From the IMG/VR virus record IMGVR_UViG_2541047174_000011: a DNA stretch of 6,053 bases; one strand, 5' to 3'. Position 1 is the stretch's first letter; every line of letters starts with the position of its first letter. This DNA comes from a virus (taxonomy: Duplodnaviria > Heunggongvirae > Uroviricota > Caudoviricetes). The notes beneath the pieces were generated by a model. It worked only from the letters and a program-made list of their open reading frames with translations. It searched no databases and was not told the DNA's origin. Both the position numbers and the translations under genes were made by a program. Below, piece after piece: positions 2,229 through 5,483 of the stretch.

Positions 2229-4324
2229 GGATTATCTTCCGCACGCTCCGTCCGCAGTTTTTTCTTCCGGCGACGGCGTTTTTCTGCCCCGGCCGTCAGT
2301 TCCGGGGATACCGTTTCACCAGAACGCTCCTGCGGGAAGACGAGCCACGTTTCCCGCTGTGCCCAGTCCGGTGCGGAGGGCCAGCGGATCTTTTCGTAAC
2401 CATGCAGAACGGCAAGCGCATCCGCATAAACCAGCAGGTCAAACGCTTCGTTAGCGCCCCTGCCCGGTTTTCGCCATTTTCCGTCACTGCCGCGCTCTTC
2501 ATAGGTCAGCTCATCGTAAAACCACCGCCCCAGCCAGTCGGGAAAGTGGATATAGTTCGGCCCTGGTGTGTCACGCCACAGGGCATTATTTACACGATCC
2601 TTAAACGCATCCGTCTGAACCAGCCACAGCGCGACATCGCCACTGGCTCTGGCACGGCGGGCACTTCTGCCGGTATTATCCGGGAAGGTTCGGTTAATCA
2701 GCCTGTCACGGCGAAGTCCATCCCCCTTGAACAGAAACACCCTGTTGCCCAGTCCGTCACTCCGGCAACGACGCCAGAAACGATAGGCGTTATCTGTCAC
2801 CCCGGCTTCCCCTCCCGTATCCACCGCCATGGCCATCAGACGCATGCGCACATCCGGATCAGAAGCCAGCGGCCATGTTTTATGGAACACATCCGTCAGC
2901 AACAAATCCCAGTCCTCCGGATATGCCGCCGGATCAACCGGCAGACTTTCACCGTTGGGACTGCAGCGCAGTGAATGCCGGATGTTGTAGCGATCAACAA
3001 TCCAGCGTTCCCCCTGCTCTCCGTATCCGGTGATCTGCACAACAAAACGGCGATTTTTACCGCCCTGTACGTCAACCGTTGCCTCAATAAAACGCACACC
3101 ATCCGGCACAGATCGCCGGGGAAACGGCTCGGCACGCTGTTCAAGCAGTTCACTTTTACGCTGTTCCGTGGCTGAACGGGGCAGATAGGGTCGTCCGATA
3201 TCGGTGTTCACCACCGCTTTCAGGGTCTCTTCACTGCCGGTTCGCTCATACTCTTCTTCTGCCGCCAGCAGTTTAAAAATCAGTTGTTCCCAGGTCTGAA
3301 ACGCCGCAGCTGGCCCCTCCATCCAAAATGACGCAATCCGGGAGTTTCGTGGCGTTCCGGTGATACTGCCGTCCGCCGCCGCCCGTTCACCTTCACGAAG
3401 CCAGATCCCCTGGTTATTCAGTTCGCGTTTCTGCTCAGGGGCAATCAGCCCGCGACAATGCGGACACATCAGACGGGCAGCCTGACCGGCAGCCACAAAA
3501 TCCGGGTTATTCCGGTATCCGGTCATGTTATCCATCACCGGCTGAAAATATTCCCCGCAGTGCGGACACGGCCAGTACCACCGGCGGCGGTCTCCCCGGT
3601 TATACAGTGACAGGATCCCCGTTGTTGGCGGTGCCTCATGTGCGCCACCACAACGCCATTTGGTATCGGTGATATCCCGCCCCGGTGAACTCTCGACCAG
3701 GGTCATCCCCGAGGACATAAAGGTGGTGGTACGCTTTGAGGCCAGCGTGAAGGCATCCCCTTCCCCGTCCACATTTTCAGGGAAACGGTCATAATCCGTC
3801 AGCGCCACACGACGGTAATCCGAAGAGGAAAAGACGGTGATCGACGGCCAGCCAATCTTCAGGAAGGAGCCGTCAAGAAACATTTTATCGTGGACGTTGT
3901 TGTCATTACGGGAAGGACTGAGGCGCTTGCTGACCTCCGGACTGTGGCGAAACGTCCTGGAAAGACGCGTTCTGGAATGCTCACGCGCCTTCGTCTCAGT
4001 CATCTGCACCACCAGCATATCCGCCGGATCACAGATGATGCCGTACACAATCCAGCCATCAATCAGCCCTTCGGTTTTCCCGGTTCGCGCAGGTCCCACA
4101 AACACCACCGCGTCATATTCACGGGCTGATAATGTATTAATGGGGTCAATCATATAGGGCGTCAGCGATGACTCCCACGGACCGGAAGTATTGGCTCCCC
4201 GTGGAACCCGCATATAACGCCTGATGGCTTCCGCTACTGGTAACCGGCTGGGTGGGCGAAACAGCGAGGCCACTTCGCGCCAGATATCGGATGCGCGGCT
4301 ATGGCTCTCGTTCACCTGATTCAC
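2201..4324 (-). CDS. Terminase large subunit, lambda GpA family
   Basis: 707-aa ORF. N-terminus (...SLFRPPSRLPVAEAI...) is lambda gpA-like. Walker A P-loop VGPARTGKT is encoded at 4073..4096, and two CPHC motifs at 3455..3568. GTG start at 4324..4322 overlaps the small-subunit stop (ATGTGA), with a GAGG 7 nt upstream. Confidence 0.92.
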   Translation of the reverse strand: MNQVNESHSRASDIWREVASLFRPPSRLPVAEAIRRYMRVPRGANTSGPWESSLTPYMIDPINTLSAREYDAVVFVGPARTGKTEGLIDGWIVYGIICDPADMLVVQMTETKAREHSRTRLSRTFRHSPEVSKRLSPSRNDNNVHDKMFLDGSFLKIGWPSITVFSSSDYRRVALTDYDRFPENVDGEGDAFTLASKRTTTFMSSGMTLVESSPGRDITDTKWRCGGAHEAPPTTGILSLYNRGDRRRWYWPCPHCGEYFQPVMDNMTGYRNNPDFVAAGQAARLMCPHCRGLIAPEQKRELNNQGIWLREGERAAADGSITGTPRNSRIASFWMEGPAAAFQTWEQLIFKLLAAEEEYERTGSEETLKAVVNTDIGRPYLPRSATEQRKSELLEQRAEPFPRRSVPDGVRFIEATVDVQGGKNRRFVVQITGYGEQGERWIVDRYNIRHSLRCSPNGESLPVDPAAYPEDWDLLLTDVFHKTWPLASDPDVRMRLMAMAVDTGGEAGVTDNAYRFWRRCRSDGLGNRVFLFKGDGLRRDRLINRTFPDNTGRSARRARASGDVALWLVQTDAFKDRVNNALWRDTPGPNYIHFPDWLGRWFYDELTYEERGSDGKWRKPGRGANEAFDLLVYADALAVLHGYEKIRWPSAPDWAQRETWLVFPQERSGETVSPELTAGAEKRRRRKKKLRTERAEDNPWITSGGWL

Positions 4325-4797
4325 ATATCGGCCTCATCACAACAGTCAATGACTGCCTTTTCCAGTGTGTCGCGGATCTCATCAACCACAATCTGTACTT
4401 CATTCAGTTGTGATGCAGTCCACCCCCTGTCCCTCTCCAGCCGGTCAGGCCAGGTTTCCAGTACCTGAACTATCGCTTTCACCACGACAGAAAAGGACCG
4501 CCTGACATCACTGACTGGCACAAGCTGAACAGTTTCATGCTGAAATTTAAGACGCTCGCGCTCGGACTGATACCATGCCTTACGAGCGTGAGGATCCATA
4601 TCCTCATCTTCGGAAGATGGTGGTTTTTCCAGCAACGAAGTTATCAAATCCGTCAGGAGATACAGTTTTTTCTTTTCATTACTGCCTGGTGCAAGAGGAA
4701 CATCCGCCATTCTGGCGGCAACAGTCTGCCGGTGCAGACCTGAAAGGGCTGCCAGTTGATTAATATTTAACTTCATATTTTTCAGCTCGCCGTCCAT
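4321..4797 (-). CDS. Terminase small subunit, Nu1-like (DNA-recognition subunit)
   Basis: 158-aa ORF directly upstream of and overlapping the large-subunit start. N-terminal MKLNINQLAALSGLHRQTVAARM is helix-turn-helix-like and resembles the lambda Nu1 N-terminus (MEVNKKQLADIFGASIRTIQNW as remembered). ATG at 4797 is preceded by GGAGGG with a 6-nt spacer; an alternative ATG at 4776 is possible. Confidence 0.8.
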   Translation of the reverse strand: MDGELKNMKLNINQLAALSGLHRQTVAARMADVPLAPGSNEKKKLYLLTDLITSLLEKPPSSEDEDMDPHARKAWYQSERERLKFQHETVQLVPVSDVRRSFSVVVKAIVQVLETWPDRLERDRGWTASQLNEVQIVVDEIRDTLEKAVIDCCDEADM

Positions 4798-4889
4798 TTA
4801 CATCCCTCCACATAAACCGCAGAACAGAAGTGACTCTGTTTTTTTGTAAAGAAATGCCGCCATATAAAGATGTCGAACAAAAAACAACC

Positions 4890-4955
4890 ACAATCATCAT
4901 CTTTTTAATACTAACAGCATTAAAAACAACAAGTTACCATCATGATGATGATGAC
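4890..4955. repeat. Inverted repeat in the cosB-like region, candidate terminase small-subunit (R-element) sites flanking an AT-rich spacer
   Basis: ATCATCATC at 4893..4901 and its exact reverse complement GATGATGAT at 4944..4952, separated by 42 bp of AT-rich DNA. A perfect 10-bp palindrome CATCATGATG at 4938..4947 overlaps the right arm. The element lies between the candidate cosN and the small-subunit start. Confidence 0.4.
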
Positions 4956-4982
4956 GATAAAATCACAAAAATGCGCCTTTTT

Positions 4983-5000
4983 CCGCGCCCGCCCGCCCCG
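4983..5000 (-). other. Candidate cosN (cohesive-end nicking site) of the phage genome
   Basis: Minus strand reads ACGGGGCGGGCGGGCGCGGAAAAAGGCGCATTTTTG, against the lambda cos junction ACG|GGGCGGCGACCT|CGCGGGTTTTCGCTATTTATG (from memory); the first 9 nt are identical, followed by a similar GC block and homopolymer run. It lies about 190 bp upstream of the small-subunit start, as in lambda. Exact nick positions cannot be read from sequence. Confidence 0.5.
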
Positions 5001-5033
5001 TGTTCAGGCCCACCCCACCAGGAGGACCCGCAA

Positions 5034-5054
5034 AAATGATAATGGTTATCATTT
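5034..5054. promoter_or_regulatory. Perfect 21-bp palindrome (9-bp arms, 3-bp spacer), Fur-box-like; possible operator or cosQ-side element
   Basis: AAATGATAA-TGG-TTATCATTT. By my hand alignment, 5032..5050 matches the 19-bp Fur consensus GATAATGATAATCATTATC at 15 of 19 positions. It overlaps the ATG at 5036 of a 40-aa plus-strand ORF that follows AGGAGG at 5020..5025. Confidence 0.3.
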
Positions 5055-5258
5055 GCAACAAAATCCAGTTTCTTCCACCATCGCACCGGACTGGCGACTA
5101 TGAGGGGACAACACCGCGCTCCGTTAACGCGGTAAACCCCGGTGTGTATCGTTTTTGATTATCCCCGCACACTCGCGCAGAGGATTCTCCCGGTCGGGCT
5201 GCGGTCTCTGTTAATGCAGGAATACGGCGACAATACCGCGCATGAATAATAAGGTCGC

Positions 5259-5483
5259 TCAACACACTGGCTGTAATGCAGCGGATACCATGCGGCATTT
5301 AGCGGCATTCATCGTACACTCAACGGTTAGCTCTTCATTCGTGGCATTCACCTGAAAGGTCCTGGAGTGTAATTGCGTACATTTACCACTGAACGAACCT
5401 TCAACAAGAACACGACCACGCTGCAAAATACGGAACGGAATTGTTCCCTGAAAAGGCTTTACGGTTACCAATAATTTCTTCAT
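5259..5483 (-). CDS. Hypothetical small protein (74 aa), function unknown
   Basis: ATG at 5483..5481 is preceded by GGAGAA with a 5-nt spacer and lies 23 nt downstream of the Rz stop. Product MKKLLVTVKPFQGTIPFRILQRGRVLVEGSFSGKCTQLHSRTFQVNATNEELTVECTMNAAKCRMVSAALQPVC has four Cys and no signal peptide or TM segment. The ORF track lists it from an upstream TTG (5501). I do not recognise a family. Confidence 0.45.
   Translation of the reverse strand: MKKLLVTVKPFQGTIPFRILQRGRVLVEGSFSGKCTQLHSRTFQVNATNEELTVECTMNAAKCRMVSAALQPVC

What the first reader, a model, noticed from the sequence alone, without database searches (positions are those of the whole stretch)
5020..5158. Fur-box-like perfect palindrome next to cos, overlapping a strong SD and a tiny ORF
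AAATGATAATGGTTATCATTT (5034..5054) is a perfect 9-3-9 palindrome with a 15/19 match to the Fur-box consensus by my alignment. It overlaps the ATG (5036) of a 40-aa plus-strand ORF (MIMVIICNKIQFLPPSHRTGDYEGTTPRSVNAVNPGVYRF) that follows AGGAGG at a 10-nt spacing. An iron-responsive operator in a phage late region would be unusual. Alternatives are a cosQ-side terminase or host-factor site, or a chance palindrome in AT-rich DNA.
Basis: partly seen in the sequence, partly recalled or inferred. Interest (0 to 1): 0.45.

Follow-up and report, generated by a model that had tools for sequence, protein, structure and literature searches.

The report
Host Fur-binding site beside phage cos
The palindrome is a real binding site for Fur, the bacterial iron-sensing repressor, and about half of lambda-type phages (lambda itself included) carry the same site just in front of the DNA-packaging signal cosQ. 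The "ribosome-binding site" and tiny gene next to it are by-products of that packaging signal.

Summary
AAATGATAA-TGG-TTATCATTT (5034-5054) is a perfect 9-3-9 palindrome.

All genes in the window lie on the minus strand (Rz, cos, TerS, TerL, portal). On that strand the box sits 4 nt (centre -15) upstream of GGGTCCT, which is lambda cosQ. The 40-aa ORF is frameshifted, truncated or lacks its start in diverged relatives, so it is not a gene.

The box is not a chance palindrome. Lambda, phi80 and the K-12 cryptic prophages Qin and DLP12 carry the same box at the same place. Among 111 unique cosQ-cosN sites chosen without regard to the box, 55 have it (0.46 expected), in 29 unrelated upstream contexts and with both TerS families.

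Published data show Fur binding. The lambda-identical Qin copy gave a gel shift and an in vivo titration clone. A ChIP-exo peak lies on the CFT073 copy, and another lies on the identical Sakai Sp15 sequence after a coordinate shift that I inferred.

What Fur does there is unsettled. I found no conserved promoter, and the delta-fur expression effects are modest and differ between strains.

The parts
5034..5054 (.). Fur operator core: perfect 9-3-9 palindrome AAATGATAA-TGG-TTATCATTT. The 7-1-7 Fur core lies at 5037-5051.
   Evidence: Searches give the sequence and scores. Conservation: the same box lies at the same distance from cosQ in lambda, Qin and DLP12, phi80, CFT073 and 29 unrelated contexts. 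Fur binding of orthologues or the identical sequence is reported in the literature.
5032..5056 (.). Extended Fur site: two 19-mer consensus alignments offset by 6 nt (5032-5050 +, 15/19; 5038-5056 -, 16/19). This is the arrangement expected for two overlapping Fur dimers.
   Evidence: Chen et al. 2007 describe overlapping sites 6 nt apart at the orthologous nohA position. That two dimers bind here is inferred.
5023..5029 (-). cosQ (GGGTCCT on the - strand), the packaging-termination subsite.
   Evidence: It is identical to the lambda heptamer 30 nt from the right end. (PMC4669245) states that cosQ is a 7-bp, highly conserved site. I assign GGGTCCT to lambda bp 48473-48479 from memory of Wieczorek & Feiss 2001.
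4983..5000 (-). cosN-like nicking site: CG|GGGCGGGCGGGC followed by GCGG. The cohesive end is predicted by alignment to lambda CG|GGGCGGCGACCT.
   Evidence: (alignment by eye) and the pattern hits. The exact nick positions were not tested.
4798..4982 (-). Presumed cosB / leader between cosN and the TerS start. It holds the inverted repeats ATCATCATC (4893-4901) and GATGATGAT (4944-4952).
   Evidence: The role is inferred from position only.
4321..4797 (-). Small terminase subunit of the DUF1441 family. It is the first gene downstream of the box and cos.
   Evidence: ORF; RefSeq annotation 'DUF1441 family protein'; 'phage terminase small subunit'; PF07278, E = 3.8e-48.
5036..5158 (+). The 40-aa ORF of the finding, judged not to be a gene.
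   Evidence: it is frameshifted after codon 9 in L011, has a stop after 7 codons in L056, has no ATG in L022, and has lost its first ATG in L058. It is retained only where the DNA is nearly identical. It is unannotated in RefSeq and GenBank relatives.

Best explanation
The palindrome is a genuine operator for the host ferric uptake regulator Fur. It is a conserved, portable part of the lambda-type cos region. Its centre lies 11-16 nt upstream of cosQ, so a typical ~30-bp Fur footprint would abut or overlap cosQ. That footprint size is general knowledge about Fur, not something measured here.

Shown: the sequence is a near-consensus Fur site; it is under selection at this position independently of what lies further upstream and of the TerS/cosB type; orthologous or identical copies are occupied by Fur under iron-replete conditions.

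Inferred (about 0.35 on its own): in the lysogen, Fe-Fur at this site gates transcription across the junction between the lysis/accessory genes and the packaging genes. It would damp read-through or weak box-internal initiation into terS-terL-portal. In phages that carry a divergent accessory gene, it would also modulate that gene. Terminase and head genes would then rise only a few-fold when Fur is inactive.

The AGGAGG and the 40-aa ORF are incidental consequences of cosQ and of the ATG inside the Fur half-site.
For: (1) Match to Fur. The site scores 16/19 and 13/14. The consensus of 29 independent phage copies, gcAAaTGATAATCATTATCAttt, is 17/19 to the Fur 19-mer, including its central C and first G.

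(2) Enrichment. 55 of 111 unique cosQ-cosN sites have >=11/14 within 45 nt upstream, against 0.46 expected. Scores are bimodal and the box centres lie at -16 to -11. After filtering for true cos features the count is 48 of 82.

(3) Kind of constraint. Departures from the palindrome are one-sided with no compensatory pairs, and RNA folding is unremarkable (z = -0.9 to -1.2). This points to a sequence-specific protein site, not a hairpin.

(4) Independence from packaging specificity. The box occurs with both Phage_Nu1 and DUF1441 TerS and with different cosQ-cosN spacers behind one upstream block. That fits a factor common to all hosts.

(5) Experiments on orthologues. The Qin/nohA site, identical to lambda, scores 22.3 bits, shifts with 150 nM Fur, and was recovered by in vivo Fur selection. 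The DLP12/nohB site scores 25.3 bits, third strongest in K-12. My coordinates match theirs: -233 from nohA, and 579824 + 776 = about 580600.

(6) ChIP-exo. CFT073 peak P53 (1424699-1424711, iron-replete) overlaps the box at 1424693-1424707, with cosQ at 1424715. Sakai peak P90 lies in the Sp15 TerS-upstream intergenic region. It falls on the identical 21-nt palindrome once a shift of about +125 nt between NC_002695.1 and .2 is applied.

(7) Expression. log2(delta-fur/WT) is +1.3 to +2.1 for CFT073 TerL and later genes, +2.3 and +2.9 for the neighbouring TU53, and +1.0 to +1.6 for Sakai ECs2961-2963.
Against: No conserved sigma-70 promoter overlaps the box in either direction. Best scores are 7-8 of 12, and the -10-like hexamer is supplied by the box itself. 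Classical promoter occlusion is therefore unsupported.

The delta-fur increases are small. They could be indirect, because loss of Fur raises oxidative DNA damage and could induce prophages; another Sp15 gene, ECs2976, is also up by 1.05.

In K-12 W3110 the genes flanking the DLP12 and Qin boxes go down in delta-fur (-2 to -5 log2, at low counts). ybcV is among the most strongly down-regulated genes under copper stress, a condition that switches on iron-uptake genes. The direction of the effect is therefore not uniform.

The MG1655 ChIP-exo list has no peak at either K-12 copy. Repeated sequence may explain this, but I did not test that.

The Sakai mapping rests on an inferred coordinate shift. 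With zero shift the peak would lie 125 nt away, in cosB, where there is no Fur-like motif.

The fixed distance to cosQ is not explained by a purely transcriptional role.
Confidence: 0.7

Rival explanations
1. Fur acts as a host factor of cos itself. Bound 1-2 helical turns before cosQ, it would serve as a speed bump or architectural element for the incoming terminase motor and so aid, or make iron-dependent, recognition of cosQ/cosN at packaging termination. This would parallel the help IHF gives at cosB.
For: The only invariant partner of the box across 29 contexts is cosQ, at -11 to -16. The box stays with cosQ when the DNA on either side is exchanged. There is no conserved promoter. The phi80 depositors include the box inside the feature 'cosQ; aka R4 region'. 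From memory, cosQ defects are suppressed by mutations that slow packaging (Feiss laboratory), so a roadblock is mechanistically conceivable.
Against: About 40% of otherwise typical cos sites lack the box, Gifsy-1 among them. N15 has a degraded copy at 11/14. The spacing varies by 5 nt, which is too loose for a rigid composite site. The literature I could reach defines cosQ as 7 bp and names only cosQ, cosN and I2 as needed for termination. I found no experiment linking Fur to packaging.
Confidence: 0.15
2. The box is the iron-responsive operator of accessory ('moron') genes that sit between the lysis genes and cos and are transcribed away from cos. Its nearness to cosQ would only reflect a compact promoter region.
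For: Lambda, Qin and DLP12 have a divergent ynfO/ylcI-type gene starting about 155 nt from the box, followed by ydfO/ybcV and bor. CFT073 has a divergent small secreted-protein ORF about 100 nt away, and its TU53 genes show the largest delta-fur change, +2.3 and +2.9. The complement of cosQ (AGGACC) lies 16-18 nt from a TATCAT in the distal half-site in 47 of 55 copies, by my arithmetic on the centre positions. That is a weak leftward promoter geometry (8/12).
Against: In the window, and in many other contexts (phi80, N15, L023, L038, L041, L044 and others), the nearest upstream ORF runs towards cos and ends 30-75 nt before cosQ, so there is no divergent gene to control. The candidate -35 is poor (3/6). 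The K-12 divergent genes fall rather than rise without Fur.
Confidence: 0.12
3. There is a small protein gene: a 40-aa peptide translated from ATG 5036 using AGGAGG 5020-5025.
For: AGGAGG at a 10-nt spacing and an open frame of 40 codons. The frame is kept in near-identical relatives.
Against: AGGAGG overlaps the complement of cosQ, which is conserved for another reason. The frame is broken or the start is lost in diverged relatives L011, L056, L022 and L058. The spacing varies with the length of an A-run. The ORF lies antisense to the late operon with no promoter and is never annotated.
Confidence: 0.02
4. It is a chance AT-rich palindrome, an RNA hairpin, or a weak terminator with no protein partner.
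For: A perfect 9-nt-arm palindrome arises in 13% of simulated windows. A T-run follows the box on the late strand.
Against: Enrichment at cosQ is more than 100-fold. The base identity, not the pairing, is conserved. The fold is no better than shuffles. The stem is almost all A-U, and the lambda version has a 1-nt centre. Fur binding has been shown experimentally for orthologues.
Confidence: 0.01

Closest known systems
Fur sites upstream of nohA (Qin) and nohB/nohD (DLP12) in E. coli K-12 (Vassinova & Kozyrev 2000; Chen et al. 2007, PMC2189734)
   Same: These are orthologous elements. They have the same TGATAAT-n-ATTATCA core, lie 6 nt upstream of GGGTCCT cosQ and cosN, and sit about 235-250 nt upstream of the small-terminase start. 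The Qin copy is identical to lambda's right end.
   Different: The window copy has a 3-nt non-palindromic centre (TGG/CCA) and longer arms. It precedes a DUF1441 TerS rather than a Nu1 TerS and has no divergent ynfO/ylcI gene. Chen et al. 2007, the only one of the two papers I could read, treats the sites as nohA/nohB promoter sites and never mentions cos, lambda or prophage (zero occurrences).
ChIP-exo Fur peaks P90 (O157:H7 Sakai, prophage Sp15) and P53 (CFT073) in Gao et al. 2023, PMC10164565, Dataset 2
   Same: P90 lies in the Sp15 TerS-upstream intergenic region, whose palindrome is identical to the window's. P53 overlaps the CFT073 box directly.
   Different: The peaks are listed only in a supplementary table as strain-specific targets. 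The main text never mentions phage, prophage or terminase. The Sakai assignment needs a coordinate shift of about +125 nt that I inferred.
Fur box of the stx1 promoter in Stx1-converting lambdoid phages
   Same: It is a host Fur operator in the late region of the same kind of prophage, and it is also bound in Sakai (P91).
   Different: It overlaps a defined promoter for a toxin operon (from memory: Calderwood & Mekalanos 1987). The cos-adjacent box has no evident promoter or cargo gene in this window.
Lambda cosQ / the phi80 'R4 region'
   Same: It is immediately adjacent. The phi80 record's 55-nt 'cosQ; aka R4 region' feature contains a perfect TGATAATTATTATCA.
   Different: cosQ proper is the 7-bp GGGTCCT. 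The box is absent from many functional cos sites such as Gifsy-1, so it is not a defining part of cos.
IHF site I1 in lambda cosB
   Same: It is a binding site for a host DNA-binding protein embedded in the cos region.
   Different: It lies on the other side of cosN, binds a different protein, and has a demonstrated role in packaging initiation. No packaging role is known for Fur.

Membership tests
Fur operator (E. coli Fur regulon) | Sequence match to the 19-bp consensus GATAATGATAATCATTATC or the 7-1-7 core, well above background | tested here: met
   The site scores 16/19 and 13/14. The background holds 5 and 3 such positions in 1.14 Mb. Orthologues score 22.3 and 25.3 bits in the Chen et al. 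model. I had no published weight matrix to run myself.
Fur operator (E. coli Fur regulon) | Fur binds the DNA in vitro | not testable with these tools
   From the literature only: the lambda-identical Qin/nohA oligonucleotide shifts with 150 nM Fur. The window variant itself has not been tested in vitro.
Fur operator (E. coli Fur regulon) | Fur occupies the site in vivo | tested here: met
   I mapped published peak coordinates onto sequence. CFT073 P53 overlaps the box in the same accession version. Sakai P90 falls on the identical palindrome with a shift of about +125 nt, supported by the neighbouring calibrators P89, P91 and P94. Caveat: that shift is inferred.
Fur operator (E. coli Fur regulon) | Overlaps a promoter, and Fur/iron controls the adjacent transcript | tested here: inconclusive
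   No consensus promoter overlaps the box. Delta-fur changes are +1 to +3 log2 in CFT073 and Sakai but negative in K-12 W3110. Indirect prophage induction is not excluded.
Lambda cos subsite (cosQ-type packaging signal) | Present at all functional cos sites of the family | tested here: not met
   It is absent from 34 of 82 filtered cos sites, including Gifsy-1.
Lambda cos subsite (cosQ-type packaging signal) | Required for packaging termination | not testable with these tools
   The primary cosQ mutagenesis papers are not in the held library. The accessible review-level text names only the 7-bp cosQ, cosN and I2.
Small protein-coding gene | Reading frame and start codon conserved in diverged relatives | tested here: not met
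   One search shows a frameshift, a premature stop and lost ATGs in relatives.
Intrinsic terminator / structured RNA | Stable G+C-rich stem with a U-run, or pairing kept through compensatory changes | tested here: not met
   The stem has one G-C pair. The fold z-score is -0.9 to -1.2. There are no compensatory changes. The only Rfam match is PrrF at 20.5 bits, against a gathering score of 90.

The most novel reading that the evidence does not exclude
Fur is an unrecognised host factor of lambda-type cos. By sitting one to two helical turns in front of cosQ, it would couple the end of DNA packaging, or the passage of late transcription into the head genes, to the iron status of the cell. If so, lambda, phi80 and the Shiga-toxin prophages would tune virion production to iron availability.
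Probability: 0.15. Interest if true: 0.8.

Novelty: new member of a known kind. Interest (0 to 1): 0.45.

Why it matters
Fur binding at this sequence is already in the literature, for the K-12 nohA/nohB sites and as a supplementary ChIP-exo peak. The papers I could read do not connect it to cos.

This analysis adds four points. The site is the immediate neighbour of cosQ. It is present in lambda and phi80 themselves. It is kept in about half of lambda-type cos regions, across 29 unrelated upstream contexts and both TerS families. It has no obvious promoter.

That turns an orphan 'nohA promoter' site into a question that can be tested directly with lambda genetics: does a host iron sensor influence packaging, late-gene read-through or accessory-gene expression in lambdoid and Shiga-toxin prophages?

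If the answer is 'nothing measurable', the site is still useful. It is a caution for regulon maps, because a top-scoring, occupied Fur site need not mark a regulated promoter. It is also a practical landmark for locating cos in prophage annotation.

Tried and rejected

(2) The primary cosQ papers (Genetics 2001, PNAS 1993) are not held.

(3) No published Fur weight matrix was obtainable, because the Chen et al. supplement is not held. I used consensus-mismatch scoring with an empirical background instead.

(4) Promoter scans on the window and on 33 representative boxes in both directions found nothing conserved.

(5) The Rfam scan and RNA folding gave nothing significant.

(6) Literature searches linking Fur with cos, Nu1, terminase or ynfO returned nothing relevant.

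(7) Two other Sakai prophage ChIP peaks, P34 and P50, are not at cos sites.

(8) I considered using the delta-fur expression data as proof of repression and rejected that. The effects are small, they have the opposite sign in K-12, and they are confounded by possible prophage induction.

(9) I considered an IHF site but did not test it. By eye there is no good WATCAANNNNTTR match.

Full report
**Setting.** The window is part of an E. coli O157-type lambdoid prophage. It is 99% identical to prophages in many O157 genomes, which carry up to 15 related places per genome. All genes lie on the minus strand: Rz/Rz1 (5974-5507), a 74-80-aa hypothetical, a 460-nt non-coding stretch, TerS (4797-4321, DUF1441), TerL, a W-like protein and portal. 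The finding lies in the non-coding stretch.

**Observation.** The 9-3-9 palindrome, the ATG at 5036, the AGGAGG at 5020-5025 and the 40-aa frame are all present as described.
A 16/19 alignment lies 6 nt away on the other strand, and the 7-1-7 core matches 13/14.
- A perfect palindrome of this size alone is unremarkable: 13% of simulated windows have one.
- The Fur match is remarkable. In 1.14 Mb of phage DNA only 5 positions reach 16/19 and only 3 reach 13/14.

**What it sits next to.** Read on the late (minus) strand, the region is ...gcaAATGATAACCATTATCATTTttgcGGGTCCTcctggtggggtgggcctgaacaCG|GGGCGGGCGGGC.... The right end of lambda reads ...gtagATGATAATCATTATCActttacGGGTCCTttccggtgatccgacaggttaCG, followed by the cohesive end.
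- GGGTCCT is lambda cosQ, a 7-bp, highly conserved packaging-termination signal (the exact lambda coordinates are from memory).
- The 'strong SD' AGGAGG is therefore mostly the complement of cosQ.
- Lambda carries the same palindrome at the same place, although the DNA between cosQ and cosN and further upstream is unrelated.

**Is the box a general feature of cos?** I collected cos sites without reference to the box, using the pattern GGGTCCT-N18-26-CGGGGCGG on IMG/VR contigs.
- Among 111 unique sites, the best 7-1-7 score in the 45 nt before cosQ is bimodal. 55 sites score 11-14 of 14 (18 are perfect), with the box centre at -16 to -11. From the background rate, 0.46 such sites are expected.
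- After filtering out G+C-rich chance hits, 48 of 82 sites have the box.
- The 55 copies fall into 29 unrelated upstream contexts. Their consensus, gcAAaTGATAATCATTATCAttt, matches the Fur 19-mer at 17/19.
- Deviations are one-sided, never compensatory, and the RNA fold is no better than shuffles. The constraint is on base identity, as expected for a protein site.
- The box occurs with both Nu1-type and DUF1441-type small terminases. Within one upstream family it occurs with two different cos modules. That argues for a factor shared by all hosts, not a phage-specific protein.
- Named phages: lambda has it; phi80 has a perfect copy 5 nt before cosQ, inside the depositors' 'cosQ; aka R4 region'; the mEp043/LLS group does; N15 has a degraded copy at 11/14; Gifsy-1 has none.

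**Does Fur bind it?** Yes, according to published experiments on orthologous copies and on a prophage copy identical to the window's palindrome.
- Chen et al. 2007 list sites upstream of K-12 nohA (22.3 bits, gel-shift positive, also recovered by the in vivo Fur selection of Vassinova & Kozyrev 2000) and nohB (25.3 bits, third strongest in the genome). I fetched both loci. The sites are the cos-adjacent boxes of the cryptic prophages Qin (identical to lambda) and DLP12. That paper never mentions cos, lambda or prophage.
- Gao et al. 2023 report Fur ChIP-exo in nine strains. In CFT073, peak P53 (1424699-1424711, iron-replete) overlaps the box at 1424693-1424707, which lies 8 nt before cosQ.
- In O157:H7 Sakai, peak P90 (iron-replete) lies in the intergenic region upstream of the Sp15 TerS, whose palindrome is identical to the window's.
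- The authors used NC_002695.1 and I could fetch only NC_002695.2. A shift of about +125 nt places P90 exactly on the palindrome. The neighbouring peaks P89, P91 (the stx1 Fur box) and P94 (the cirA Fur box) need shifts of +123 to +141, whereas P88 needs none.
- With zero shift, P90 would lie in cosB, where there is no Fur-like motif. I regard the mapping as probable, not certain. The CFT073 case has no such caveat.

**The tiny ORF.** It survives only in near-identical relatives. L011 has a 1-nt deletion that changes the frame after codon 9. L056 stops after 7 codons. L022 has no ATG and L058 has lost the first ATG. The AGGAGG-ATG distance also varies with an A-run. The ORF is antisense to the late operon, has no promoter and is never annotated. 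It is a by-product of the ATG in the Fur half-site and of a strongly conserved block upstream.

**What Fur does there.** This is the unsettled part.
- No sigma-70-like promoter is conserved over the box in either direction.
- Expression data point to modest repression in two pathogens. In CFT073, TerL and later genes rise by +1.3 to +2.1 log2 in delta-fur, and the neighbouring TU53 rises by +2.3 and +2.9. In Sakai, ECs2961-2963 rise by +1.0 to +1.6. These changes could reflect extra prophage induction in delta-fur.
- In K-12 W3110 the genes on both sides of the DLP12 and Qin boxes fall in delta-fur. ybcV is among the most strongly down-regulated genes under copper stress, which turns on iron-uptake genes. 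The MG1655 ChIP-exo list has no peak at either copy.
- At cos sites without the box, a G+C-rich hairpin plus T-run often occupies the same spot. It ends 2 nt before cosQ and follows a rightward ORF. This suggests that stopping non-antiterminated transcription just before cos is useful.
- I therefore favour, at about 0.35, a gate on transcription crossing from the lysis/accessory region into the packaging genes in the lysogen. The effect on neighbouring accessory genes would depend on context.
- The tight link to cosQ keeps alive a packaging role, with Fur as a roadblock or architectural factor at termination (about 0.15). The divergent genes in lambda, DLP12, Qin and CFT073 keep alive an accessory-gene operator role (about 0.12). 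In the window itself the nearest upstream ORFs run towards cos.

**Comparison and novelty.** The element belongs to the Fur-operator class and is orthologous to the known nohA/nohB sites. Binding to the identical Sp15 sequence is already in a public supplementary table. I did not find any discussion of its position beside cosQ, its presence in lambda and phi80, or its breadth across lambda-type cos regions. It fails the test for a cos subsite because many cos sites lack it.

**Verdict.** This is a real, conserved, experimentally occupied Fur site of unknown role. The SD and ORF part of the finding is spurious.

Noticed in passing
window 5058-5160 (both strands): The ~105 nt immediately upstream of the box (atcaaaaacgatacacaccgggg...ccggtgcgatggtggaagaaactgg on the late strand) is almost invariant in 12 relatives, including phages with a different cosQ-cosN spacer and cohesive end. 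The conservation continues about 45 nt past the stop of the unannotated 66-aa late-strand ORF (5298..5098) and includes the small inverted repeat accgcg/cgcggt. It could be a non-coding element or a recombination joint.
   Followed up: partly
L005, L020, L025, L033, L065, L075, L096, L102 (IMG/VR contigs): Several contigs carry two or three cosQ-cosN matches within 0.4-8 kb, some in opposite orientation. Examples: L075 at 3432-, 4069+ and 4422-; L020 at 4162+ and 4722-. Typically one copy follows a terminator and the other does not. These may be satellites or PICI-like elements next to phages, or duplicated cos modules.
   Followed up: no
cos sites without the Fur box, e.g. L005, L020, L025, L033, L075, L098, L102, L106: A G+C-rich hairpin plus T-run, with different stem sequences, ends exactly 2 nt before cosQ and follows a rightward ORF that stops 30-40 nt before cosQ. 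In sites without the box, position -1 is C in 28 of 34 and positions -7 to -4 are T-rich. The sequence preference around cosQ may therefore extend beyond 7 bp.
   Followed up: partly
L001 1810-2004, minus strand (lambda 48109-48303): Lambda has a 64-aa ORF (MSTKNRTRRTTTRNIRFPNQMIEQINIALEQKG...) whose start region is identical to that of K-12 ynfO (DUF3950). It is not annotated in NC_001416. It starts about 155 nt from the Fur box and runs away from cos.
   Followed up: partly
L126 (CFT073 1423000-1426500): The CFT073 prophage has iss (a bor homologue) and a TonB-family protein gene just upstream of the Fur-bound cos box. A divergent ORF about 100 nt from the box encodes a small Cys-rich protein with a signal-peptide-like start (MKIRNILAISLA...). 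An iron-related accessory gene next to a Fur site may not be a coincidence.
   Followed up: no
K-12 DLP12 and Qin loci (L125, L124): In W3110, ybcV, ybcW, ylcI, nohD, ynfO and ydfO fall by 2-5 log2 in delta-fur at low counts. ybcV is among the most strongly down-regulated genes under copper stress. This is the opposite of classical Fur repression. It could fit Fur acting as an anti-silencer, as reported for ftnA (from memory).
   Followed up: partly
window 4893-4901 / 4944-4952 and 4933-4955: The inverted repeats ATCATCATC / GATGATGAT and a run of ATGATGATGATGA lie between cosN and the TerS start. They are candidate TerS (cosB) recognition repeats for DUF1441-type terminases.
   Followed up: no
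window 4922-5063, minus strand: The only Rfam match at E<=1 is PrrF, a Fur-regulated Pseudomonas sRNA, at 20.5 bits against a gathering score of 90 and E = 0.88. It is almost certainly chance.
   Followed up: no
Gao et al. 2023 Dataset 2, Sakai sheet: The peak coordinates are in NC_002695.1. Relative to NC_002695.2 they appear unshifted at 2.8537 Mb and shifted by about +125 to +140 nt from 2.8596 Mb onward. Peak P88 is labelled 'fbaB, intergenic', but its coordinates fall on a 15/19 Fur-like motif inside yegT.
   Followed up: partly
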